A stretch of 63,047 nt of DNA, filler included, from Babesia bigemina (lineage: Eukaryota), in assembly GCF_000981445.1 (NCBI RefSeq). It is 6 parts of 6 records of this genome, joined end to end, with 100 filler letters (N's around TTAATTAATTAA, not from the genome) between each part and the next. Parts side by side here need not be neighbours in the genome. Positions count along the whole stretch, not along the records: positions 59,660 to 63,047 come from NW_012237205.1; 5 more parts are not named here. One strand, given 5' to 3'. The translations under genes were made by a program, and so were the position numbers. This document shows, piece after piece, positions 458 to 63,047 of the stretch; positions within the stretch are counted from its first letter, which is position 1, and each line of letters starts with the position of its first letter. A model generated the notes under the pieces. The model saw only the letters and a list, made by a program, of their open reading frames with translations. It was not told where the DNA came from and ran no database searches.

Positions 458-503
458 AATACTCAAGCTTGCATGCCTGCAGGTCGACTCTAGAGGATCC
501 CAC

Positions 504-3500
504 CGCCACGTCCATAATAGCAATCACGCCAGCTGTTAGCCTCGTACTCACGTGAACACTGAACTAATAGGAAACACAGCTGCTCGTACACCCGAGTCAA
601 CACATCCGCAAGAATTTCCAAACATTTCGCAGGGTCCGCGGGATATACGAAACTGTCCGCGTTGCTGTTAAAATCGCAAGCATACCGCCCGCCTGCGTGT
701 CCATAACCCTGGATGGCGACAAGTACAGTCTCCGAATACGCGCAAACATCGCGAAGGCTATTCGACAGCTTTGTAGCCGTGACATTTTCTGGGTAGGCCT
801 CCAACGTGTCCGGGTCCTTATCCGATAGAGACAACTCAGCATCCGACTCGTCTTTCTCTGGCTTTTCAAACAGGTCACTGAACCCATTGAGCGCCAGTTC
901 CTGGTGCACTGGATCGTACGACAGACCGGAGAGCCATTGAAGCATGTCGTATATACTGCGTGGATGTTTCTTGGAACTGAGAGTGCCCAGGTGACATACT
1001 TCGTAGTACCATCTAAGGCAATCGTGTAGGTAATCGAATAAGTCGAGCAGCGTTACTCCGTCACCGTGTCTGTTGTTAGATGTTTTCCATGCTTTTAACT
1101 GCTCCAATTTCTCTGCGTCAGTAGTCTTCCGTTTCAGTTTTTCGTTAACGGTCTGGCCGCTAATCGTATTACGCAACACCCCGTTGTGTACAGCTTCCGA
1201 TTCGGAGACTTTATACCCCGCGTCTTGCAAGCACGCTCCGAGAGGATTGTTTTTACCACGCAAATTAGTTTTCAATTCACTCCAAGACACAACGCATTTG
1301 GATCGCAAGTCAGACACGTCGTGACACATTACTGGTATCAAGGTGAGGAAGGCTTTGGCGCAGTTGGTTGCGTCGGCGGTTAATCTTTTGTAATTTTCAG
1401 TTTCATTCCACTGAATACTTGTCCCCGAATACCTGCTGACGTAAGCCATGTTCAGCTGCTTGACGAATGCCGTGATGCCTTCCTTCAGAACATCAATTAG
1501 CGGACTAAGTGGCCCGGAGAAGCCAGTGGGCACCAGAGACTGTATGGCATTTTCAAGCGTGTCAAGGTTGTTTGTGAATGTGCTGTCGAAGTGCTCCGAA
1601 GATTCGAGACCGGAGAGCAACTGATCCACCGGGGAATGTATCGCATCAACTATAGTTGTGAAAGACATCATATCCGGTTGGCTTGAGATGTTTGATGACA
1701 ACAGTTGAAAGAATGTTTTCGCGTATGACGCTCCGTCCGGCAACTCGGAATCCGCATTCAAGTTATTGAACTCGCCAATGTCCGCGTTGAGATTCTTAAA
1801 AAAACCTTTGATACCACTTTTCAAATCGTTGTCTATGGTTTTCGCCATTAATGCACGCCGCTGCTCCACAAACGTTCCTAGTGCTTTAAGATCATTGATT
1901 TTTGACTTGACATAGCGCTTAAGTGCGTCTTGTTTTATGTCTCTCTTGGCCTTCTCAACTTCTTCTCTGATATTTTCTTGTATGGCTTCTCTGCAATTTT
2001 CGACGGCTTCAGGGAGAGTGGAATGAAGTACATTTGTGACGGCTGTATCTAATTTTCTGAGTTGATCTTTTTGGAGGGTGTCGAGATCGGTTTTTATCTT
2101 TTGAAGACCTGATCTGTTATTAACCATGGCGATGCGCTCCTTTCTGAAATCACCTAACATTTTCTTCAGTCCGCCTGGTTGTTCATCGGATGCTTTCTCA
2201 ATGGTGGCGCACAATTTTGCAATATTAGATGTAACATCTTTAAAGAGTTTTAGAACGTCATTATGTGCATTATCAATTTGCGATAATGCGGTAATCGTTT
2301 GCGTTCTCAATACTCCCATGGTATCATTGAGGGCGATGTACGCGTCGAGGCGTCCATTGATGTCATTTAATAGTCTACCGTCTCCACTCGCCACTATACC
2401 TTCAAATGGATGTTTCGTAACATTGTGAATCGCTACATCTATCGCGGCTGCAGCATTGTCGCTATCATCGCCGAGGGAATTAGGCTGTGTTGCTTTCTCA
2501 AGTTGGTGTTGCAGTGTCTCAATCTTAGGCTTAACGGCTTCCAATGCCTTATCAACTTTTTCGCCGGGATTGCCTGATATAAGTTGTTTGCCAAGATCTT
2601 CAACATCTGGTATTGCACTTTCTATTCGATTAATTAGTGACGTTTTAGCAAACCGCTTAAGCTCTAATGCAACCTGCTTGAAGTTGTTCAATAAGGACTT
2701 CACGATAGCTCTAATAATAATCTCGATATTGTGTCTATATTTATGCTTCGCTTTTGTCAAACCCAACTGCTCTTCTATTTGTTGAGCTGCCCTTCCAAGT
2801 GAAAAATTTAGATGGTTCTTAAGTTGAAGTTCAACATGGTCGGCAAATTCCTGAAATCGATCGGCAATATTACCCACCGTTGATCTATTAAGATGCGTTA
2901 CGGCAGCTTCCTGTATTTCTGTGTAAATATGCGATGGGAGGTGTTTCTTTATTGCATCCTTCACCGCCTCATCATCCTTGTCTGTCATCTGGCTAACGTT
3001 TTTGTGAAGTCTCACATACTGGTTTATCTTGTAAGTCACAATGCTCTCATCTTTATCTTTTAATATATCTCCAATCCACTCAGTCAATACGTTACTGCTG
3101 AATCCTTCTTCTCCAAAACCATTGGCGTAATCTGTGACACCTTTTGCAATCAATTTAAGTGCTCCAGTTATTTCACCATCTTCCACACCAGTCATGCTGT
3201 CAACAACCTGCTTAACCTCATGTTTAATCTTCTGCCAATTCTTATATATACTATCATCTGCATCATCTAGTTCTGGGACTTTCATTGGTTCTCCAATTTT
3301 TCCTTTAATGAACTTCACCTCCTCTTCAATATGCTTCATAATCCCTTTGATATTATCACTTTCCGTTTTCACACCTAACTGATGGCCAAGCATTCCAATT
3401 TTCTTTCTCACATCCTGGACTGCGAAATTCACGTCCTCTTTCAGCTTCCATAATTTATTCACGTAAACTTTTTCGAGACCTGTGATCATTATGTTAGCTT

Positions 3501-4637
3501 TAGGCACCAGTTCTTTAACAAGTCGATCAGCAGCTCTACCAGCATGGTAGAGTGATTGAGCCTTCAGCGTCAACTGCCTAATCGCCTCTTGTATATCCTT
3601 CTTGGTTCGTGCATTTTCTGTGTCTTTCACCTGCTGTAATATTATTTCAACCCTCTCTAACGCATCGATCATAGTCTGATCCGCATTCTTGATCCACACC
3701 GTCAGGTGTTCGACGTATTTTTTCAACATTTCGTCCACGATACCGATGTGTCCTTGTATATTTTCCATATTGTCAGCCAATGTTGTACTGATACGCCTTA
3801 TCTCATTATCAGTTGTCATGTGAACAGCGTGACGCAGTTTGTCAAGCACCTTATTAACATTCTCGCACAGCTTCTCCATACGCCACTTGTCTTCCTTTGC
3901 GTTCTTCGTGACGTGATTTATTTCCATTTTAATTTTCTCGAAGTCACTCATAACCTTCATTTGCAGAGGCCCATCAAGCTTTTTTATGGCCTCTTTCACT
4001 GCATTAACATTATCGTCCAACCCATCAAACACCGTCGTGGCCAAGGTGGAGACTACACTGTCTAGGGACTGGGACTTTAACTTATCAACTGCCGCAATAT
4101 TTTCACCAATTTTTCGTTTTAATGCTTTTAACGTGCCTTCACCTTCTTCTTTCACAACTTTATCTATTTTCTTTTGCAAATCTCCATCCCACTCCCCCAG
4201 CGCCGTGCTCACAGCCATAACGGCCTTAGACAATCCGCCAGGATTGTGCATACTGTTTTTAATTTTTTGGAGTGTTTCAGTCATTTTCTCTACAGGATAA
4301 TAATGCTTGACGTTTTCATCATCTTTCACCGCACCAAGCACCCCCAGCAAAAACGCCATCACCCCGTCACACAGCCTATCCAGGTCAGAGTACACTATCC
4401 CCTGGCCGTCGTAGCCTTTGGACTCTTTGTTGAAGCCGAGGAAGGTTTCGAGGCCGGTGCAGAGGTTAGTAAGGATATTAGTAGGGTTGTTATTTGAGGT
4501 AATTTTGAGGTTTTAAATTTTGTCAAATTTCTTGTCAAGCTCCCTAGGCGACACATGGTCAGGGCAGTGGCAAGAGGTGGAAGAGGGAAGGGAAGGGTGA
4601 CAAGGCACAAGTTATTGTGATGGTTTATAGAGATCAT
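504..4637 (-). pseudogene. ves1: ves1/VESA1-like gene; 3' end cut by vector; leader has a 1-nt frameshift (~4580) and an in-frame TAA (4513-4515); body ORF 504-4395 open
   Basis: GIVYSDLDRLCDGVM motif, long coiled-coil region, YVSRYSG, start of Cys-rich domain; leader aligned by eye with intact paralog at 17996. Confidence 0.75.
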
Positions 4638-30659: not shown

Positions 30660-31229
30660 AGAAACATGGTAACCTAGCACCCAAGCAAAGTGCTAAGCTG
30701 GCAACCAGGCAAAGTGCTGAGCTAGCAACCAGGCAAAGTGCTGAGCTAGCAACCAGGCAAAGTGCTAAGCTGGCAACCAGGCAAAGTGGTAACCTAGCAA
30801 CCAGGCAACGTGGTAAGCTAGCACGCAGGCAACGTGGTGACCTAGCAACCAGGCAACGTGTTGACCTAGCAACCAGGCTAAGTGCTAAACTAGCAACCAG
30901 GCAAAGTGGTAAGCTAGCATCCAGGTAAAGTGGTAAACTAGCAACCAGGCTAAGTGGTAAGCTAGTAACCAGGCAACGTGTTGACCTAGCAACCAGGCAA
31001 AGTGCTAAGCTAGCAACCAGGCAAAGTGCTAAGCCAGCACCCAGGCAACGTGTTGACCTAGCACTCAGGCAAAGTGCTAAGCTAGCACTCAGGCAAAGTG
31101 CTAAGCAAGCATCCAGGCAAAGTGGTAAGCTAGCACCCAGGCAAAGTGCTAACCTAGCACCCAGGCAAAGTGCTAACCTAGCACCCAGGCAAAGTGCTAA
31201 CCTAGCACCCAGGCAAAGTGGTAAGCTGG
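30660..31229 (+). repeat. 21-bp minisatellite array
   Basis: Tandem CCAGGCAAAGTGCTAAGCTAGCA-type units. Confidence 0.95.
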
Positions 31230-31513
31230 CGGATGAACCGTAATTTGGTAGGTGTTGTGGCACGTTGATTGCCTGGTGCCTTGAGTTAGGCGTTGACTGT
31301 GAGAGGTGTCTGCGTTGCCCATTGAGTCAGTGTTACGTGAGGCTGGGTGATTGGTCGCTAACGTAGGCGGTCGTGAAGGCCGCGGCGAGTGACCTAAGTC
31401 GTGTGTTGCGAGTCACTGGCGGGGTGGCGCAATCCGAGTTGGCCTGGTTAAGTAGCATTTATAGGCGGCAATGTAACGATCGTTAATATCACATTTAGGC
31501 ACGTAGCCGACAC
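31230..31513 (+). repeat. Conserved ~285-bp non-coding element (second copy at 59660-59950, inverted)
   Basis: Aligns by eye with the reverse complement of 59660-59950; both follow a 21-mer array. Confidence 0.85.
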
Positions 31514-33682: not shown

Positions 33683-35005
33683 TACATCGCTCTTAACCCA
33701 CCCTACATCGCCCTTTGTCCACTCTACATCGCTCTTAACCCACCCTACATCGCCCCTTAACCCACTGTACATCGCTCCCTAATCCACTCTACATCGCTCC
33801 CTAATCCACTCTACATCGCTCCCTAATCCACTCTACATCGCTCCCTAATCCACTCTACATCGCTCCCTAACCCACTCCACATCGCTCCCTAATCCACTCT
33901 ACATCGCCCCTTTATCCACTCTACATCGCCCCTTTACCCACTCTACATCGCTCCCTAACCCACTCTACATCGCTCCTCTATCCACTCTACATCGCCCCTT
34001 TTTCCACCTTACATCGCCCCTTTATCCACTCTACATCGCCCCTTTACCCACTCTACATCGCCCCTTAATCCACTCTACATCGCCCCTTTACCCACTCTAC
34101 ATCGCCCCTTAATCCACTCCACATCGCTCCTTTATCCACTCTACATCGCCCCTTTATCCACTCCACATCGCTCCTTGACCCACCTTATATCGCTCCCTAA
34201 CCCACTCTACATCGCTCCCTAACCCACTCTACATCGCTCCCTAACCCACTCTACATCGCTCCCTAACCCTGTCTACATCGCCCCTTTATCCACTCCACAT
34301 CGTCCCTTAACCCACTCTACATCGCCCCTTTATCCACTCCACATCGCTCCCTAACCCACTCCACATCGCCCCTTTACCCACTTTACATCGCTCCTCTACC
34401 CACTCCACATCGCTCCTTTATCCACTTTACATCGCCCCTTCATCCACTCTACATCGCCCCTTAACCCACTCCACATCGCCCCTTTATCCACTCTACATCG
34501 CCCCTTTATCCACTCTACATCGCTCCCTTATCCACTCTACATCGCCCCTTTATCCACTCTACATCGCTCCCTTATCCACTCTACATCGCCCCTTTATCCA
34601 CTCTACATCGCTCCTTTATCCACTCTACATCGCCCCTTTACCCACTCTACATCGCCCCTTTACCCACTCTACATCGTTGCCTAACCCACTCCACATCGCT
34701 CCCTAACCCACTCTACATCGCCCCTTTATCCACTCTACATCGCCCCTTTATCCACTCCACATCGCTCCCTAACCCACTCTACATCGCTCCTCTATCCACT
34801 CTACATCGCCCCTTTATCCACTCCACATCGCTCCTCTATCCACTCTACATCGCTCCCTAACCCACTCTACAACGCCCCTTAACCCACTCTACATCGCCCC
34901 TTAACCCACTCTACATCGCCCCTTTATCCACTCCACATCGCTCCCTATCCACTCTACATCGCCCCTTAACCCACTCTACATCGCCCCTTTATCCACTCTA
35001 CATCC
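33683..35005 (+). repeat. 22-bp minisatellite array (~1.3 kb)
   Basis: Tandem CCACTCTACATCGC(C/T)CCT(T/A)... units. Confidence 0.96.
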
Positions 35006-40727: not shown

Positions 40728-40869
40728 TTGTATTCACACTTGTAATTCACATCAACTCACGTAACTACTCACCTACTCACCTAACCGACAAACGTAGTCT
40801 AATGTCTCGAATTACTCTAGCGGCAACCTGTGAACGAAATAGCACCTAGATTAGGTGATGACTAAACGA

Positions 40870-41158
40870 CAAAGCAATGTGTTGACCTAGCAACCAGGCA
40901 AAGTGCTATGCTAGCAACCAGGCAAAGTGCTAACCTAGCACGCAGGTAAAGTGCTAAGCAAGCAACCAGGCAAAGTGCTGAGCTGGCAACCAGGCTAAGT
41001 GCTGAGCTGGCAACCAGGCAAAGTGCTAAGCTAGCACCCAGGCAAAGTACTAAGCAAGCAACCAGGCAAAGTGCTAAGCTGGCACACAGGCAAAGTGCTA
41101 AGCTAGCACCCAGGCAAAGTGCTAAGCTAGCAACCAGGCTAAGTGGTAAGCTGGCACC
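40870..41158 (+). repeat. 21-bp minisatellite array
   Basis: CCAGGCAAAGTGCTAAGCTAGCA-type units. Confidence 0.95.
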
Positions 41159-41617: not shown

Positions 41618-43668
41618 ATCCACTCCACATCGCCCCCTAACCCACTCTACATCGCTCCCTAACCCACCCTACATCGCTCCCTTATCCACTCCACATCGCC
41701 CCTTTACCCACTCTACATCGCTCCTCTATCCACTCTACATCGCCCCTTAACTCACTCTGCATCGCTCCCTAATCCACTCTACATCGCCCCTTAACCCACT
41801 CTACATCGCCCCTTTAACCACTCTACATCGCTCCTTCATCCACTCTACATCGCTCCCTAACCCACTCTACATCGCTCCCTAACCCACTCTACATCGCTCC
41901 TTAACCCACTCTACATCGCCCCTTTATCCACTCTACATCGCCTCTTTATCCACTCCACATCGCTCCCTAATCTACTCCACATCGCCCCTTTATCCACTCT
42001 ACATCGCCCCTTATCCACTCTACATCGCCCTTTATCCACTCTACATCGCCCCTTTATCCACTCTACATCGCTCCTTAACCCACTCTACATCGCCCCTTTA
42101 TCCACTCTACATCGCCCCTTATCCACTCCACATCGCCCCTTTATCCACTCTACATCGCTCCTTAACCCACTCTACATCGCCCCTTATCCACTCCACATCG
42201 CCCCTTTATCCACTCTACATCGCCCCTTATCCACCCTACATCGCTCCCTTATCCACTCTACATCGTCCCTTTACCCACTCTACATCGCTCCTTTATCCAC
42301 TCTACATCGCCCCTTTATCCACTCTACATCGCCCCTTAACCCACTCTACATCGCCCCTTTATCCACTCTACATCGCCCCTTTATCCACTCTACATCGCTC
42401 CTTAACCCACTCCACATCGCTCCTTATCCACTCTACATCGCTCCTTAACCCACTCCACATCGCCCCTTAACCCACTCTACATCGCTCCCTTATCCACTCT
42501 ACATCGCCCCTTTATCCACCCTACATCGCTCCCTAACCCACTCCACATCGCCCCTTTACCCACTCTACATCGCCCCTTTATCCACTCTACATCGCTACTT
42601 AACCCACTCTTCATCGCTCCCTAACCCACTCTACATCGCTCCCTAACCCACTCTACATCGCTACTTAACCCACTCTTCATCGCTCCCTAACCCACTCTAC
42701 ATCGCTCCTTTACCCACTCTACATCGCTCTTTAACCCACTCCACATCGCTCCCTAATCCACTCCACATCGCCCCTTTATCCACTCTACATCGCTCCCTTA
42801 TCCACTCCACATCGCCCTTTACCCACACTACATCGCTCCTTTATCCACTCTACATCGCTCCCTAACCCACTCCACATCGCTCCTTAACCCACTCTACATC
42901 GCCCCTTTACCCACTCTACATCGCCCCTTTATCCACTCTACATCGCCCCTTAATCCACTCTACATCGCCCCTTTATCCACTCTACATCGCCCCTTAATCC
43001 ACTCTACATCGCCCCTTATCCACTCCACATCGCTCCTTAACCCACTCTACATCGCCCCTTTATCCACTCTACATCGCTCCTTTATCCACTCTACATCGCC
43101 CCTTTATCCACTCTACATCGCTCCCTTATCCACTCTACATCGCCCCTTAACCCACTCTACATCGCTCCTTAACCCACTCTACATCGCTCCTTTACCCACT
43201 CCACATCGCTCCCTAACCCACTCTACATCGCCCCTTTATCCACCCTACATCGCTCCCTAACCCACTCTACATCGCTCCCTAACCCACTCCACATCGCCCC
43301 TTATCCACTCTACATCGCCCCTTTATCCACTCCACATCGCTCCCTTATCCACTCTACATCGCTCCCTTATCCACTCTACACCGCCCCTTTATCCACTCTA
43401 CATCGCCCCTTTATCCACTCCACATCGCTCCCTAACCCACTCTACATCGCTCCTCTATCCACTCTACATCGCCCCTTTATCCACTCCACATCGCTCCTCT
43501 ATCCACTCTACATCGCTCCCTAACCCACTCTACAACGCCCCTTAACCCACTCTACATCGCTCCTTATCCACTCTACATCGCCCCTTTATCCACTCTACAT
43601 CGCCCCTTAACCCACTCTACATCGCCCCTTTACCCACTCTACATCGCTCCTTAACCCACTCTACATCC
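41618..43668 (+). repeat. 22-bp minisatellite array (~2 kb)
   Basis: Tandem CCACTCTACATCGCCCCTTTAT variants. Confidence 0.96.
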
Positions 43669-43695
43669 CTCGAATTACCTCGCCTTAATACCGCT

Positions 43696-46600
43696 ATGAC
43701 CTCTATAAACCATTACAATAACTTGTGCCCTGTCACCCTTCATTTCCCTGCTTCCACCTCTTGCCACTGCCCTGACCATGTGCCGCCTAGGGAGCTTGGC
43801 GAGAAATTTCATGAAAATAAAAAGTGCGAAATTACCTCAAATAACAACCCTACTAACATCCTTAATAATCTCTGCTCTGGCCTTGAGACCTTTCTCGGCT
43901 TCAACTCTGCTAACAAAGGCTACAATGGCACTGGGATAGTGTACTCCGACCTTGATAGGCTGTGTGACGGGGTGATGGGATTTTTGAGTGGTGTTCTCAG
44001 TAACATCTACAAGCATTTAGGGCAGCATAAAAACACTTTAAATGATGCAATTACGTCACTTAACACCAATAAACACCTTGGTAAAAAAGGTTTTAATGCT
44101 GCGATTGTGAAGGTGGTCGCAGGGGTGCGGGGGTATAATGATAAGGTGAAGAGGTCAAATGATGATATCAAGAGACCGATTGAAACGCTATTAACACATG
44201 TCAATGAAGAAGTTATGAAGAAGGTAAGTGCAATTTTAAATGATAATGCTGCTTCAGGTCAGAATACATACAGTGACAAGGACATCGAGAAAGTCAAGCG
44301 AGCCGTGACGGAGGCTACCAATCTGGTCAAAACATGCATTGACTCGTCTAACGCCTATTTATTTGGCATAGACAGCCAACGAAAAAACATAAATGACTTA
44401 AATCACGAATTAAAACTTAATGTACATAATGTTACAAAACATGTAAAACATGAGAGTGGACGCCTTCACGACTTAGCGTGGAAGGCGAAGGGTGACTTGG
44501 AAGCAATGGATAAAGTCATTAATGATAAGCTCAAAACGGTGAAAGAGAACGTTAATTGCAGAATAAAAATAGAGGTGAATGAACTTGTCGAAAATCTGAA
44601 GTTAAAAGTCTCGGCAATCTTGATACAACTTAAGCAAATTAGTGAGAATCTGGCAGACAGTCTGAGCAATCTAGAATTGTGGATGGAAAAAACCAAACAT
44701 ATGATTGACAATGCAGTTGCAAAGCTTGATTTAATCATCAATAAAACTGTTGGAAGAGAAAACCGAGAATTCATAACATCGATGACGGAGCAGATTGGAA
44801 GAGATGTTAAACAGCTTCACAGTGCGGGACAAGATGCGAAAAACAGAGTAGCTGCGTTGGTTAGGGATGCACATCTGAAAGTACGTGAGTTACAGACGGC
44901 ACTGCAGTTTGATTTGGGCACAATTAAAGATGAGATCAGAAGTAAGGTCAGCAAGGTTGTCTCAGCGATTGTGTCGCTTGGGAGACAGTTTTACGACGGT
45001 AGCATCAAAACGCCAACAAATATTGAGGAGATTATAACACATATTCAAGGAGAGGTGAAAAGCATTAAAGGGCATGTTGGTGAACCAAGAGAACCAGGAA
45101 ACCTTAAACCAACAGATGGCAGCGTATACCAAAATTGGGAAGAGTTCAAAAAGAATTTAAAAGATCTGGTCAATCAGATTAAAGGAGAAAGCGTAGGTAG
45201 GGGTGTAAATGGTAAGGGTATAGAACATATTAAAACAGGAGTCATCAAGTATGCTGCGTCGTATAAAGAGTCTAAAGGAGAGGACACTGGATTCGCAAAA
45301 ATTTCGAAGGATTGGGTCACGGAAGTAGTTGGAACAAAAGCAGTCAAAAAATGGCTTGACAAGTATATTGAAGATAATATTTTTAACACTTATTTTAATG
45401 GAGAGCTGAGTGCTAGGGGACGTGATAGCTTAGGTACATACGTTATTAAAAAAGTGACGGAGCACATACAGGAAGTGGCTGGTAAAATCGAGCCGGATAA
45501 AACATTTGCTGAGAATAACGGTCTAGAAGACTACTTACCATACGTGAAAAATTATCTCAAGAAGTTTGCCACGGACGTAGTGAATAAGCGGGATGAGATA
45601 ATACGGGCTTTCGAAGGTCAAGTATTACATGATGTTCAGGTCGTATCGTTTGTCAAGTCGGGTAGGCATAATAACACTAATCTCAAACTTGCCGTCCAGG
45701 CCACCCTAGGTGTGCTGTCCGTTCTGGCCGAACGAGTTGCAAAGCAACTGGAGGCATTCATTGACGAAAGGCAAATAAACCTCGGTGGCAACGTGACGCA
45801 CATTTCGAGCAAGGTCGATGAAATCGAAGAACATGTCGACATCCGTGCACGAAAGTACACGAATGCTCTAGGCTATGCAATCGACAAAGCGCTGCAAAAT
45901 GTTCGTGGAGCAATTAATACGCTGTCCGGTCAGGTTGACCAGGCGCTGGAAGGCGGATCTGTGCCCGGCCGCGAGACAAGCGATTCAGCCGCCGCATACG
46001 TGGACAAAAAAATCAAACAGGTTACAGACACGCTTGACGAGCAGCTGCCGTGGGACCCTGCAGTCGTTGCATATAACACGCGTGGTGTCAAGCTTGAGAA
46101 ACTAACCAGATACGAGACAGGTGCGGCAGACAGCAGGAAAGGAAAGAAAAAAGAACTCGAAGATGCCATAACAATAATAGATACTGATGTGAAGCGTATT
46201 CTACAGCCATTAGACACGTTTAATGAAAATGCATTAGATCAGTTCAAAGTTGTGACTAGCAAACTTAGTGCTTTCATGGAAGATTATTCTAGCGCAGCCA
46301 ATGAGATCAAAACGATTCTGCAGACAATCAGAACTGAGCGAATCGACAATCGTTTACTCAATTATATTAAGAATGGAATTGCAACGCTGCGAACCGTTAG
46401 GTTGAATGCGGTCATCAACAAGGCAGAGCAGTTTCCCGATGAAGCGGATGTGTTCCAAAATAACTGCGTAGATGTCCTAGAAAAACACGTTGAAAATGAA
46501 GTTAACATTGCACATACTGCAATTCTATATACAGCGCGAAGGCATTACATCACCACGATCCAGTTGTTACTTCAAAGCTTCGCATCCAAAGTGCACAGCG

Positions 46601-49447: not shown

Positions 49448-50528
49448 AAAGCTAAGTGCTTAGCTAGCATCCAAGCTAAGTGCTAAGCAAGCACACAAGT
49501 TACGTGTTAACCTAGCACCCAGGCAAAGTGCTAAGCTAGCATTCAGGCAAAGTGCTAAGCTAGCACCCAGGCAAAGTGCTAAGCTAGCAACCAGGCAAAG
49601 TGGTAAGGTAGCAACCAAGTTAAGTGCTAAGCAAGCACACAAGCAACGTGTTGACCTACCATCCAGGCAACGTGCTGACCTAGCAAACAGGCGAAATGGT
49701 AAGCTAGCAACCAGGCGAGGTGCTAACCTAGCAACCAGGCAACGTGTTAAGCTAGCAGCCAGGCAAAGTGCTAACCTAGCATCTAGGCAAAGTGCAAAGC
49801 TAGCACCCAGGCAAAGTGCTAAGCTAGCACCCAGGCAAAGTGCTAAGCTAGCACACAGGCAAAGTGGTAAGCTAGCACTCAGGCAAAGTGCTAAGCAAGC
49901 ATCCACGCAACGTGTTAAGCTGGCAACCAGGCAAAGTGTTGACCTAGCAACCAGGCAAAGTGCTAAGCTAGCAACCAGGCAAAGTGCTAAGCTAGCAACC
50001 AGGCAAAGTGCTAACCTAGCACCCAGGCAAAGTGCTAACCTAGCACCCAGGCTAAGTGCTAACCTAGCAGCCAGGCGAGGTGCTAACCTAGCAACCAGGC
50101 AACGTGTTAAGCTAGCAGCCAGGCAAAGTGCTAACCTAGCATCTAGGCAAAGTGCAAAGCTAGCACCCAGGCAAAGTGCTAAGCTAGCACCCAGGCAAAG
50201 TGCTAAGCTAGCACCCAGGCTAAGTGCTAACCTAGCAGCCAGGCAAAGTGCTAAGCTAGCACCCAGGCTAAGTGTTGACCTAGCACCCAGGCTAAGTGCT
50301 AAGCTAGCATCCAGGCAAAGTGCTAAGCTGGCAACCAGGCAACGTGTTGACCAATGCCATGACCAAAGTGCTAAGCTAGCACTCAGGCAAAGTGGTGACC
50401 TAGCACCCAGGCAAAGTGGTAAGCGAGCACTCGAGCTAAGTGCTAAGCAAGCACCCAGGCAAAGTGGTAAGCTAGCACACAGGCAACGTGTTGAGGTGGC
50501 ACCCAGGCAAAGTGTTAACCTAGCACCT
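49448..50528 (+). repeat. 21-bp minisatellite array
   Basis: CCAGGCAAAGTGCTAAGCTAGCA-type units. Confidence 0.95.
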
Positions 50529-59559: not shown

Positions 59560-59659
59560 NNNNNNNNNNNNNNNNNNNNNNNNNNNNNNNNNNNNNNNNN
59601 NNNTTAATTAATTAANNNNNNNNNNNNNNNNNNNNNNNNNNNNNNNNNNNNNNNNNNNN
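59560..59659. other. Artificial contig spacer
   Basis: N run with TTAATTAATTAA. Confidence 0.97.
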
Positions 59660-59950
59660 GTGTCGGCTAGGTGCCCAAATGTGATATTAACGATGGCTAC
59701 ATCGCTGCATATAAATGCCATTTAACCAGGCCAACTCGGATTACGCCACCGTGCCAGTGACTCGCAACACACGACTTAGGTCACCCGCCGCGGCGCTCAC
59801 GGACGCCTACGTTAGCAACCAATCACCCAGCCTCACGTGACACTGACTCAATGGGCAACGCGGACACCTCTCACAGTCAACGCACAACTCAACTCACCAG
59901 ACAATCAACGTGCTACAACACCTACTAAATTACGGTTCATCCGCCAGCTT
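59660..59950 (-). repeat. Conserved non-coding element (copy of 31230-31513)
   Basis: Reverse-complement alignment by eye. Confidence 0.85.
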
Positions 59951-60270
59951 CGCACTTTGCCTTGATGCCAGCTTATCACTTTGCCTGGGTGCCAGCTTAA
60001 CACTTTGCCTGGCTGCCAGCTTAACACTTTGCCTGGTTGCTAGGTCAGCACGTTGCCTGGTTGCCAGCTTAGCACTTTGCCTGGCTGCCAGCTTACCACG
60101 TTGTCTGGTTGGTAGGTTAGCACTTTGCCTGTGTGCTAGGTCGCCACGTTGCCTGAGTGCTAGCTTAGCACTTTGCCTGGGTGCTAGGTCAACACTTTGC
60201 CTGGTTGCTAGCTTAGCACTTTGCCTGGTTGCTAGCTTAGTACTTTGCCTGGTTGCTAGGTTAGCACGTT
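59945..60270 (-). repeat. 21-bp minisatellite array
   Basis: Tandem TGCTAGCTTAGCACTTTGCCTGG-type units on + strand. Confidence 0.95.
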
Positions 60271-60415
60271 GGATTGTCGTTCAGTCATCACCTACTTTAG
60301 CTGCTATTTAGTTCACAGGTTGCCGCAAGAGTAATTCGAGACATTAGACTACGTTTGTCGGTTAGGTGAGTAGGTGAGTAGTTACGTGAGTTGATGTGAG
60401 TTACAAATGTGACGA

Positions 60416-61450
60416 TCACGGTTGTAGATACGATATCTTGGCAAGCCTTCCGACTTGCGCTGCAGCCAACAGTGACTGCGCCGTTATTTTGTTCGACGAC
60501 GGTATCCTCAGGTGTGACCTGATGTGGAGCACATCCAGTCTGCCAATCATGACGCAAAGGAGGTACAGGAGGGATAGTGACCAAAGTGCGAGGACCATGT
60601 AGGTGAACGGTTCTCTGATGGTCCAAATGAAGTTGTCACATTCCTCAAATAATTTGGTGAAGTATTGCGATTTTAGCAGATTACTCAGTTGTGTATTGAA
60701 ACTAAGGCAGAATTTTCTGTTAGTTCCATACAGCGTTTTTGCGTCGCCAAAAGTGAACCCGTACTGGTAGAACGTAGTCATCACTCCACGACAGCTTATC
60801 AGTGCCTTGCACTTGCAGCTGTACTCGACACCATGCTTTCCCGGCTTGCACGAACATTTCGTACAACCGGAGCCTCCACAATCCATTTGCTGGAACGCAT
60901 CGAGCAACGATTTAAGGTAACTGTAGAATGTCCACGGCAGATATACAGCCCATGACAGGTAGAGATCGGCGTGCTTTTTGGCGAGGTACGTGTACGCATC
61001 GGAAGATGTGGAGCAGAGGTAGGGAGCACAGTGAATATCTTTGTTATGAGGTAGATCACATGATTCTCTTGACAGGCTTGACAAGTCAGCCTCCGTAGAT
61101 TTGGAATGGTCCGAACTGTTGTGGCCCGTTTGGTTGCGATATGCATTCTGCAGCGCACCTGTGAGTTTGCTTGTCTCCTTGTATAGCTCGATTGAGAGCG
61201 CTTTCGTTTTCGTTTGAAAAGCTAAGCTGACATCACTAGCGGCTTTAGCGTTATCTAACATATTACTTAAGGTCAACGCAAATTGGAAGTGCTCTGGCAA
61301 CGTAGATGGCGGCTTGGGCAGCAGACCGAACAGCGTGTTAATATTAGAATTGTCGAGGAATTTGGTCAGCACGTTACATATGTCCTTACCTGTCTTCGTG
61401 CTTCCAGAGAAACCTCTGAAGCCAAGTGGTGTTATACATGGCGCACCACC
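60416..61450 (-). pseudogene. ves1: 3' remnant of a ves1/VESA1-like gene (class II tail) interrupted by a retrotransposon
   Basis: Frame reads GAPCITPLGFRGFSGSTKTG...LPEHF...AQVGRLAKISYLQP; ves homology stops at ~61447-61450 and an in-frame stop lies at 61463-61465. Confidence 0.85.
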
Positions 61451-61452
61451 AG

Positions 61453-63047
61453 TTAAATTAAGTTATCTCATCTTATAGTGTGCTATGTGGCTACGTGCCT
61501 AGGGCCGGTTTTCGTGTTTGCGGGGCTAACGCCTCACGCTGAAACCGGTTGCGGGATCCACGCCGGTCCATTGCCGGACGTCACTGGTGCCATCCATGCG
61601 GGCATCCATCCAGTTTGGGCTTGAGGGTCTTCTACGGAATCGTAGTCTTCTTTCGGCTTCATATCCCTCATCACTATTTTATGTGTTTCTTGGATCACTA
61701 CCCTTTGTATGTGGGCTTCCATGCGATCCGATATGCCCAGGTCCCGTCTATACTTGCTGTGTTCTTTCGTCACTATTCCCTCCCACGTCATAACGTAGGG
61801 GATAACCCTGATCTTGGTGTGCTGGTTAAACTGTCGCGCCTTGAGGTCCTCAATAAGGTCTTCATACTTCTGCTTCTTGAACTTCTCCGTATCCACTAGG
61901 TTGTCTTGATTGGTGATTCCTATCTCCACGATGGTTATGGTGTTCCTCCGCCGATCCGCCAGGATGATGTCTGGCCTGTTGTATTCCTTAGTCTTCTGAG
62001 TCTTGACCGTCTTGTCGTACGCGATCCATCCGTATTTTCCATGTACTTCACTCTCGATCTTGTGGGCGTCTATCTTCTCCTTGGGTAGTCCTATTTGCCT
62101 CCCGAGTACTGAGTGGACCCGTTTTGCTACCTCGTTGTGCCTCTTCGTATATTCTAGGTGTAGTAGTTTCTGGCACTTCGTCGCGAGGTGATCCACGTTC
62201 TTGCCGTTGTTGCATCTTGTGCATTTCTTGGACGAAGACATCCATTGCAGATTCCTATCCTGGACTTCCGCTACGTTCGCTTCTTCTTCCGGAGTGAGTA
62301 TTCCACACGTCAGGTACAAGGACGACGCCTCAATGTCCAGCTTGGGGTCCTCACGCTTGGCATACAGAACCTTATGAGTTGATTTTACGTGCATTCTGTT
62401 GTACAGCCATTTGTTTTGGGCCACCCTGAGGTCCCTGAGGCTCTTGTCCGTAGTGTCCTCCATTCCGAATTCCATTCCATATCTTCCTTCCAGGTGCATC
62501 TTGATGTGAGATATGTGCGCGTATGTGTCGCGAAAATGCTGCATGATCGCAGCTCTCCTGGTTGACGTCACCTCGTCTGCTGAAAGCGTCAACCACAGTC
62601 GTAGCAGCATGGCTTCCGCTCTAAATACCATGCTGTGGAGCCCTCTCCCCATCTCTTTCCGGGGGAGGTAGAGCCTCTGTGTGTTCGCCCACTTCTTGTG
62701 TCCGTGCTTCGCGTTAATTATTCTCCGTACTGCCAGGTCGATCTTGTCGAAATGCGTGATGTCCATAGGGATCACGCCGATGTAGTAGTTGATGACGCTG
62801 AGGGCGTACTGGTTGATGGCCATCGAGAGGTTTTTCCCCGACAGCTTTGACGCAGCCAGTAGCTCCGTTCTCCTGCATATCTCCTGTAGTATTATGTCGA
62901 ACATTCCGTCGCTTGTCAGTGAGTTTGAAGTCTCTGTGACTCCCAAGTACTTGTACGTTTCCGGGCCTTCCATCTGCTTGGCGATGCTGGCGCACGCCTC
63001 CGTGTTGGTTGCCGACTTGTCGCGGTTGATCCTGAGTCCTATGTCGT
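61453..63047 (-). mobile_element. Non-LTR retrotransposon of the restriction-like endonuclease (RLE) type, R4-like; 3' portion including ~80-nt 3' UTR
   Basis: Domain order RT > CCHC > RHN > PD-(D/E)xK-like endonuclease, short 3' UTR with AT-rich end, abrupt junction with ves coding sequence. Confidence 0.9.
61534..63045 (-). CDS. Reverse transcriptase C-terminus, CCHC zinc knuckle and RLE endonuclease (5'-partial)
   Basis: Frame open to window end: DIGLRINRDKSATN...YKYLG (late RT motifs), RLYLPRKEMGRGL, CTRC..DHLATKC, YTKRHNEV, RPDIIL..TIVEIGIT..KKQKY. Confidence 0.92.
   Translation of the reverse strand, partial: DIGLRINRDKSATNTEACASIAKQMEGPETYKYLGVTETSNSLTSDGMFDIILQEICRRTELLAASKLSGKNLSMAINQYALSVINYYIGVIPMDITHFDKIDLAVRRIINAKHGHKKWANTQRLYLPRKEMGRGLHSMVFRAEAMLLRLWLTLSADEVTSTRRAAIMQHFRDTYAHISHIKMHLEGRYGMEFGMEDTTDKSLRDLRVAQNKWLYNRMHVKSTHKVLYAKREDPKLDIEASSLYLTCGILTPEEEANVAEVQDRNLQWMSSSKKCTRCNNGKNVDHLATKCQKLLHLEYTKRHNEVAKRVHSVLGRQIGLPKEKIDAHKIESEVHGKYGWIAYDKTVKTQKTKEYNRPDIILADRRRNTITIVEIGITNQDNLVDTEKFKKQKYEDLIEDLKARQFNQHTKIRVIPYVMTWEGIVTKEHSKYRRDLGISDRMEAHIQRVVIQETHKIVMRDMKPKEDYDSVEDPQAQTGWMPAWMAPVTSGNGPAWIPQPVSA

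What the first reader, a model, noticed from the sequence alone, without database searches (positions are those of the whole stretch)
61400..61540. Retrotransposon inserted co-directionally inside a variant antigen gene: possible ves-targeting
Seen: ves homology (GAPCITPLGFRGFSGS, conserved in all class II copies here) ends within ~15 nt of the element's 3' end, and both are on the minus strand. Established: many RLE elements insert site-specifically in multicopy loci (R2/R4 in rDNA, CRE/SLACS and NeSL in spliced-leader genes). Inference: the multicopy ves family may be this element's safe-haven target, linking a retroelement to antigenic-variation repertoires. One junction cannot show specificity, and any target-site duplication lies outside the window.
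Basis: partly seen in the sequence, partly recalled or inferred. Interest (0 to 1): 0.85.

Follow-up and report, generated by a model that had tools for sequence, protein, structure and literature searches.

The report
Retrotransposon crowding Babesia variant-antigen genes
A jumping gene interrupts one of a blood parasite's surface-disguise (ves) genes, and in a related species nearly all of its relatives lie beside such genes, but at many different positions, likely because spare ves genes are where insertions survive rather than because it aims at one sequence.

Summary
The junction is in the sequence. The 3' 1,596 bp of a non-LTR retrotransposon with a restriction-like endonuclease (R2-like fold) ends at 61452; ves1 homology resumes at 61447, 4 nt away, same strand. 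The protein piece is identical to a 1,347-aa multicopy protein whose named cluster mates are Babesia bigemina. LINE-like elements in this species are already published. R2-style targeting fails: no listed contig of five runs laid continues into this codon; at least five different ves positions appear in B. bigemina, B. ovata and B. caballi gene models, one copy is antisense to ves, one adjoins a non-ves gene, and ves-less Theileria equi carries 13 models. But the link to ves loci is real and was not found in print: 100 of 103 B. caballi element loci lie within three genes of a ves-like gene (31% expected); 9 of 15 B. bigemina chromosomal fragments within five (15% expected, partial list). Best reading: loosely specific insertion with survival in dispensable ves arrays (0.5); a regional, chromatin-guided preference remains open (0.33). 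The 5' junction and target-site duplication lie beyond the contig end and were not seen.

The parts
61452..63047 (-). 3' 1,596 bp of a non-LTR retrotransposon (whole element about 4.6 kb); cut by the end of the contig and window
   Evidence: 100% identical to the first 1,596 nt of a 4,608-nt contig of run X1; only copy in the window
61534..63045 (-). C-terminal 503 aa of the element's single ORF (end of RT, thumb, linker, zinc knuckle, endonuclease)
   Evidence: identical to residues 845-1347 of P0001; AlphaFold pLDDT 90; seven best Foldseek hits are R2 proteins, E 4e-11 to 2e-9
62173..62223 (-). CCHC zinc knuckle (C275, C278, H286, C291 of the 503-aa piece)
   Evidence: invariant or nearly invariant in a 92-sequence alignment
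61651..62073 (-). restriction-like endonuclease, PD..E..K type (P358 D359, E374, K390, K393, Y394); limits approximate
   Evidence: P358, D359 invariant and K390, K393, Y394 nearly invariant; profile match to the R2 endonuclease stretch
61452..61533 (-). 82-nt 3' UTR ending in a short AT-rich tail, no poly(A)
   Evidence: sequence; no unusual folding, z -0.46; tail varies between copies
61448..61451 (-). 4 extra nucleotides between element end and ves homology; inferred untemplated or slipped letters from the start of reverse transcription
   Evidence: element end 61452; ves homology from 61447
60416..61447 (-). 3' 343 codons and stop of an interrupted ves1 gene (likely ves1b type), including the membrane anchor and conserved tail
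   Evidence: 92-93% identical to five intact B. bigemina proteins; reading frame still open
59898..60329 (.). 24-bp tandem repeat array downstream of the ves stop, shared with other ves genes of the window
59560..59659 (.). artificial spacer between contigs (44 N, 12-mer, 44 N)
   Evidence: five identical spacers in the window

Best explanation
A recently active non-LTR retrotransposon with a restriction-like endonuclease has inserted into a ves1 gene, and its family is concentrated at ves loci at many different positions, likely because it inserts with only loose sequence preference and copies survive mainly in the dispensable ves arrays of a haploid, gene-dense genome. Shown: element anatomy, the 3' junction, many near-identical copies, several different ves positions and both orientations, strong enrichment next to ves-like genes. 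Inferred: target-primed reverse transcription (from the R2-like fold and the 4 extra letters at the junction); purging of copies from core genes and their short intergenic regions; further spread of copies when ves blocks are duplicated or converted.
For: Young family: 7 of 13 other cluster members are 99.5% or more identical to P0001 over their aligned length, four with a full 1,347-aa frame counting P0001. Different sites: window site 343 codons from the ves end; P0130 joins ves about 2,700 codons from its end; B. ovata P0483 has collinear ves halves around a full element, far upstream of the window's site; B. caballi P0032 and P0501 join about 200 codons apart. Antisense case: the tail of P0493 reads a ves gene in reverse, 30 of 35 codons compatible, best of 200 shuffles 19. 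Non-ves cases: P0192; 3 of 103 B. caballi loci are 18-60 genes from any ves-like gene; 5 of 15 B. bigemina fragments are 45 or more genes from any listed ves (list incomplete). T. equi holds 13 models. Enrichment: 89 of 103 loci adjacent (21% expected), 100 of 103 within three genes (31%); 29 of 31 models confirmed by my own searches within three genes of cluster 01 alone (21%), 48 of 54 merged regions within five (28%). B. caballi is 74.8% coding (PMC10463595).
Against: The enrichment is extreme: 3,485 of 5,748 gene gaps lie more than five genes from a ves-like gene and hold 3 of 103 loci, so selection must purge nearly all intergenic insertions too, which I could not test. Other B. caballi multigene families carry few copies (2 loci beside 131 gaps of clusters 06, 10, 11; 0 beside 53 of cluster 09), though they are small. 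Two B. ovata paralogs only 39% identical (P0119, P0483) are joined to the element within about ten codons of each other, a hint of a hot spot, but one rests on a predicted gene model. Six of the seven ves joins seen are co-directional, but fusion models favour that orientation.
Confidence: 0.5

Rival explanations
1. The element actively prefers ves arrays as a region (through their chromatin, their frequent breaks or co-transcription with ves), without a fixed target sequence; ves is a true safe haven.
For: 97% of B. caballi loci within three genes of a ves-like gene; 57 of 117 ves clusters hold a copy; the bias is seen in B. caballi and B. bigemina and in B. ovata gene models although the elements are only about 50% identical between species and ves sequences are highly divergent. 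Two B. bigemina genes annotated with an RT-like domain are 1,931- and 128-fold higher in blood stages than in kinetes (PMC9806345; membership of this family not checked). The three most expressed B. caballi ves1c genes have an RT model 1, 2 and 3 ids away (36% of cluster 01 genes have one within three).
Against: Selection alone predicts the same direction. No chromatin-binding or N-terminal zinc-finger domain was found in the 1,347-aa protein (only RVT_1 in Pfam). Relatives live in T. equi and microsporidia. 5 of 15 B. bigemina fragments are far from listed ves genes.
Confidence: 0.33
2. Sequence-specific targeting of a conserved ves site, as R2 does in 28S rDNA or ingi/RIME in RHS genes.
For: RLE elements are mostly target-specific (PMC4640811); the window's site lies beside the most conserved ves motif (glycine two residues before the motif in 124 of 126 matches); P0119 and P0483 join within about ten codons.
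Against: No listed contig piece among 73 laid (19 pieces shown) or continues from the element into this codon; at least five ves positions and both orientations; DNA at the homologous codons differs among the eight window copies.
Confidence: 0.06
3. This particular junction is an assembly chimera or a recombination product at a contig edge, not an insertion at this codon.
For: It lies on a 3.4-kb unplaced contig that ends inside the element; no contig of X1-X6 bridges it; the 5' ves half is unseen.
Against: The join falls exactly on the element's 3' end as defined by other copies and carries 4 letters that belong to neither side; complete insertions inside ves genes exist elsewhere (P0483).
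Confidence: 0.07

Closest known systems
LINE-like elements of Babesia and Theileria equi (PMC9141347)
   Same: Reported for B. bigemina (0.97% of the assembly), B. ovata, B. divergens and T. equi, absent from B. bovis; very likely this family.
   Different: That paper gives no insertion sites and never mentions ves (0 occurrences).
B. caballi cluster 03, 141 RT gene models (PMC10463595)
   Same: 31 of 33 B. caballi homologs found here map by accession offset onto that list.
   Different: The passages read report the expansion but not its position next to ves genes.
R2 (Bombyx, Taeniopygia, Platysternon; solved structures)
   Same: Single ORF, RT, zinc knuckle and RLE; best structural and profile matches.
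   Different: 11-13% identity; R2 has one rDNA site, this family has many sites; no N-terminal zinc finger or Myb hit in Pfam.
R4 clade (Dong, EhLINE; microsporidian Dong-R4 LINEs)
   Same: RLE, short AT-rich tail, dispersed copies; Dong targets TAA repeats (PMC3812793), EhLINE lacks targeted insertion and nicks a 5-nt motif (PMC1635306 abstract); Dong-R4 LINEs dominate one microsporidian genome (PMC13174016) and the nearest named relatives here are microsporidian. EhLINE's place in R4 and the likeness of the thumb motif to R4 elements are recalled, not from a call.
   Different: No labelled R4 reference was available, so clade membership is untested.
ingi/RIME and L1Tc in trypanosome RHS genes (PMC7563717)
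   Same: A retroelement piling up in a polymorphic multigene family of a blood parasite and leaving split pseudogenes.
   Different: RHS has one hot-spot site and is a nuclear protein family; here the sites are many and the family is the variant surface antigen itself.

Membership tests
RLE non-LTR retrotransposon | non-LTR RT domain in one long ORF | tested here: met
   PF00078 E 5e-30 in P0001, to which the window piece is identical
RLE non-LTR retrotransposon | C-terminal CCHC knuckle and PD..(D/E)..K endonuclease | tested here: met
   conserved residues, R2 profile and fold matches
RLE non-LTR retrotransposon | dispersed copies with a shared 3' end and different flanks | tested here: met
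RLE non-LTR retrotransposon | target-site duplication or deletion at the 5' junction | not testable with these tools
   contig ends inside the element; no genome held
Site-specific RLE element (R2, R4, CRE/SLACS, NeSL type) | same nucleotide position in the target repeat in most copies | tested here: not met
   different flanks and at least five ves positions
Site-specific RLE element (R2, R4, CRE/SLACS, NeSL type) | fixed orientation to the target | tested here: not met
   one antisense case against six sense cases; biased sample
Site-specific RLE element (R2, R4, CRE/SLACS, NeSL type) | endonuclease cuts the target sequence in vitro | not testable with these tools
   bench test
R4/Dong clade | RT groups with labelled R4, Dong, Rex6, EhLINE sequences | not tested
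   tree of 38 rows had no labelled R4 reference
R4/Dong clade | short AT-rich or TAA-type tail or target | tested here: inconclusive
   tails are AT-rich and repeat a short unit in some copies, but several rows are mixed consensuses (agreement 0.6-0.7)
ves1 (VESA1) of B. bigemina | conserved C-terminal domain with membrane anchor | tested here: met
   92-93% identity to five full-length B. bigemina proteins; Pfam has no hit for this part; subtype ves1b inferred from related ids labelled ves1b in PMC5660447 file 2
RHS-type single hot spot | one site used repeatedly within the gene family | tested here: inconclusive
   not met family-wide; one pair of B. ovata joins within about ten codons

The most novel reading that the evidence does not exclude
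Babesia carries an active retrotransposon that homes to its variant-antigen arrays by region rather than by sequence, is transcribed in the blood stage, and by its nicks, its repeats and its reverse transcriptase helps to prune and reshuffle the ves repertoire; it could also be the lost source of the reverse transcription proposed for the origin of intron-poor ves1-alpha in B. bovis (PMC4066756).
Probability: 0.25. Interest if true: 0.85.

Novelty: new member of a known kind. Interest (0 to 1): 0.55.

Why it matters
Apicomplexans have few mobile elements, and how Babesia ves repertoires turn over is an open question. An intact, young retroelement whose copies sit almost wholly in ves arrays gives a testable source of gene inactivation, ectopic recombination points and RT activity there, and insertion markers for tracing ves rearrangement between isolates. 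It also warns annotators: several ves and 'RT' gene models in B. bigemina, B. ovata and B. caballi are element-ves fusions. If the bias is only selection, it is an expected outcome, though not yet described for these parasites in the papers I could search.

Tried and rejected
No genome is held for this window, so junctions could not be collected genome-wide. Metagenome contigs gave no relative of the protein and no match to a 21-nt tail pattern. Earlier scan notes: nothing. Asking whether four 30-nt flanks are ves: their translations scored no better than shuffles against 135 ves sequences (14 to 52 of 60 shuffles as good), which has too little power to say either way. Pfam on the 503-aa piece and the ves piece found nothing above threshold. 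The 3' UTR has no unusual structure. Host or tick contamination was considered and rejected: near-identical copies lie on megabase contigs named B. bigemina and relatives occur in four other piroplasms. The tail of P0128 matched no ves sequence in either sense and stays unassigned. The tree is the quick one; the careful search did not finish and three rows were skipped for short or broken matches. No complex prediction was sent.

Full report
What is there. The window is a bundle of six contigs joined by identical artificial spacers, almost all ves1 genes and their repeats. The finding lies on the last contig, 59660-63047. On its minus strand a 503-aa frame, open at the window end, stops at 61534 and is followed by an 82-nt AT-ending UTR and then by 343 codons of a ves1 gene that stop at 60416. 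The 503 aa are identical to the end of a 1,347-aa protein (P0001) whose named cluster mates are Babesia bigemina; the organism is inferred from these names.

The element. P0001 has a non-LTR RT domain. The window piece carries a CCHC knuckle and a PD..E..K endonuclease whose key residues are invariant or nearly so in 92 relatives; a profile of these matches R2 best, and a confident model (pLDDT 90) has seven R2 structures as its only Foldseek hits with E under 0.001. The family is young: 7 of 13 other members of the two clusters are at least 99.5% identical over their aligned length. One contig of run X1 holds 4,608 nt of it, identical over the 1,596 nt in the window. Relatives occur in B. ovata (two families), B. 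caballi, B. divergens and T. equi; the next named relatives are microsporidian and mite sequences. A quick tree groups the Babesia copies (SH-aLRT 100) among microsporidian and unnamed sequences, with T. equi outside that group on modest support. Clade R4/Dong is a recalled lead and untested.

The junction. Contigs with other flanks leave the window at 61451-61453, fixing the 3' end at 61452. Five intact paralogs, 92-93% identical, match from 61447, and two contigs of run X2 match the ves piece up to 61447 and then depart, which fits an uninterrupted close paralog or allele there. Four letters belong to neither side, as expected from the start of target-primed reverse transcription (inference). 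No listed contig bridges the junction: 73 were laid on 61380-61530 with 19 pieces shown and no joint. The 5' half and any target-site duplication are beyond the contig end, and no genome is held.

Is it site-specific? No. The other 3' flanks differ from the window and from each other. Gene models that fuse element and neighbour give further sites: P0130 joins a long ves-like gene about 2,700 codons from its end; B. ovata P0483 is a ves 5' half, a full element and a collinear ves 3' half (positions 318-867 and 870-1240 of the P0130 ves part); B. caballi P0032 and P0501 join ves1c about 200 codons apart; the tail of P0493 is a ves gene read backwards, so that copy is antisense (30 of 35 codons compatible, best of 200 shuffles 19); P0192 adjoins a myb-like gene. 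Against this: B. ovata P0119 and P0483, 39% identical paralogs, join the element within about ten codons of each other. These sites rest on predicted gene models, which favour co-directional cases.

Is it concentrated at ves loci? Yes. From Table S2 of PMC10463595 (supplement parts 2-5) I took the 141 RT models (cluster 03) and 869 ves-like models (clusters 01, 02, 04, 05, 07, 08 and three further ves1c ids), collapsed consecutive RT ids to 103 loci, and assumed 5,890 ids in genome order. 89 of 103 loci touch a ves-like gene (21% of gaps do), 100 of 103 are within three genes (31%), and 57 of 117 ves clusters hold a copy. The list is sound: 31 of 33 B. caballi homologs from my searches map onto it, the other two one id off. 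With cluster 01 alone and those 31 models, 29 are within three genes (21% expected); after merging loci within 30 ids, 48 of 54 regions are within five (28%). In B. bigemina, 15 chromosomal fragments (8 ids placed by offset) were set against 106 ves ids (PMC5660447 file 2, parts 2-4 of 61, plus four; ves2 and two ves1b clusters missing): 9 of 15 within five genes (15% expected), 5 of 15 at 45 or more. Gene counts are not DNA lengths, and duplicated ves blocks make loci non-independent.

Mechanism. Most likely (0.5) the element inserts with loose preference, as EhLINE does (PMC1635306 abstract), and copies persist where a haploid genome that is about 75% coding can spare DNA: the silent, redundant ves arrays. 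An active regional preference (0.33) is not excluded, because the far-from-ves 60% of gene gaps hold only 3% of loci and other multigene families hold few. T. equi with 13 models and B. bovis with ves but no element (PMC9141347) show that neither needs the other. One-site targeting gets 0.06, a false junction 0.07.

What is in print. LINE-like elements in B. bigemina, B. ovata, B. divergens and T. equi: PMC9141347 (passages, section 3.2, one supplement search). RT gene expansion in B. caballi: PMC10463595 (passages, supplement parts 1-5 of 18; its pptx could not be read). PMC5660447 (abstract, passages, supplement search and three parts), PMC4066756 (passages, supplement search; one file not searched), PMC3505731 and PMC10471129 (term searches) do not name the element in their main text. 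For comparison I read passages of PMC4640811, PMC3812793, PMC7563717, PMC4202319, PMC13174016, PMC9806345 and the abstract of PMC1635306. Ten searches listed no paper linking the element to ves loci; subscription journals, Repbase and unread supplements could hold one.

Verdict. A known kind of element with an association that I did not find described; interest 0.55.

Noticed in passing
window 61534-63045 and relatives: The Babesia elements form one group nested among microsporidian elements (Hamiltosporidium, Nucleospora, Pancytospora), with the T. equi element outside it; this hints at horizontal transfer and perhaps two separate arrivals in piroplasms. Quick tree, midpoint root, no clade test.
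   Followed up: partly
B. caballi gene ids 18120/18130, 30960/30980, 10260/10230: The three most expressed ves1c genes have an RT model 1, 2 and 3 ids away; 16% of cluster 01 genes have one adjacent and 36% within three, so this is suggestive only.
   Followed up: partly
PMC9806345 Table 3: Two B. bigemina genes with an RT-like domain are 1,931- and 128-fold higher in blood stages than in kinetes; whether they are this family was not checked.
   Followed up: no
P0119 and P0483: Two divergent B. ovata ves-like paralogs join the element within about ten codons of each other: a possible local hot spot.
   Followed up: partly
window 30663-31513, 40855-41158, 49451-50527, 59898-60329: 24-bp tandem repeat arrays follow ves1 stop codons and make spurious long frames on both strands.
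   Followed up: no
window 490-4512 (-): This ves frame stops early, before the conserved C-terminal part; it looks broken.
   Followed up: no
window 34001-35000 and 42001-44000: Strongly C-rich stretches (GC skew about -0.8) lie just upstream of plus-strand ves genes.
   Followed up: no
P0031, P0413: Relatives labelled as bacterial genome bins (Candidatus Riesia, Paraclostridium) lie on short contigs and are likely eukaryotic contamination of those bins.
   Followed up: no
P0130, P0128, P0483, P0119, P0032, P0501, P0493, P0192: Public gene models that fuse the element with a neighbouring gene; annotation errors that mark insertion sites.
   Followed up: yes
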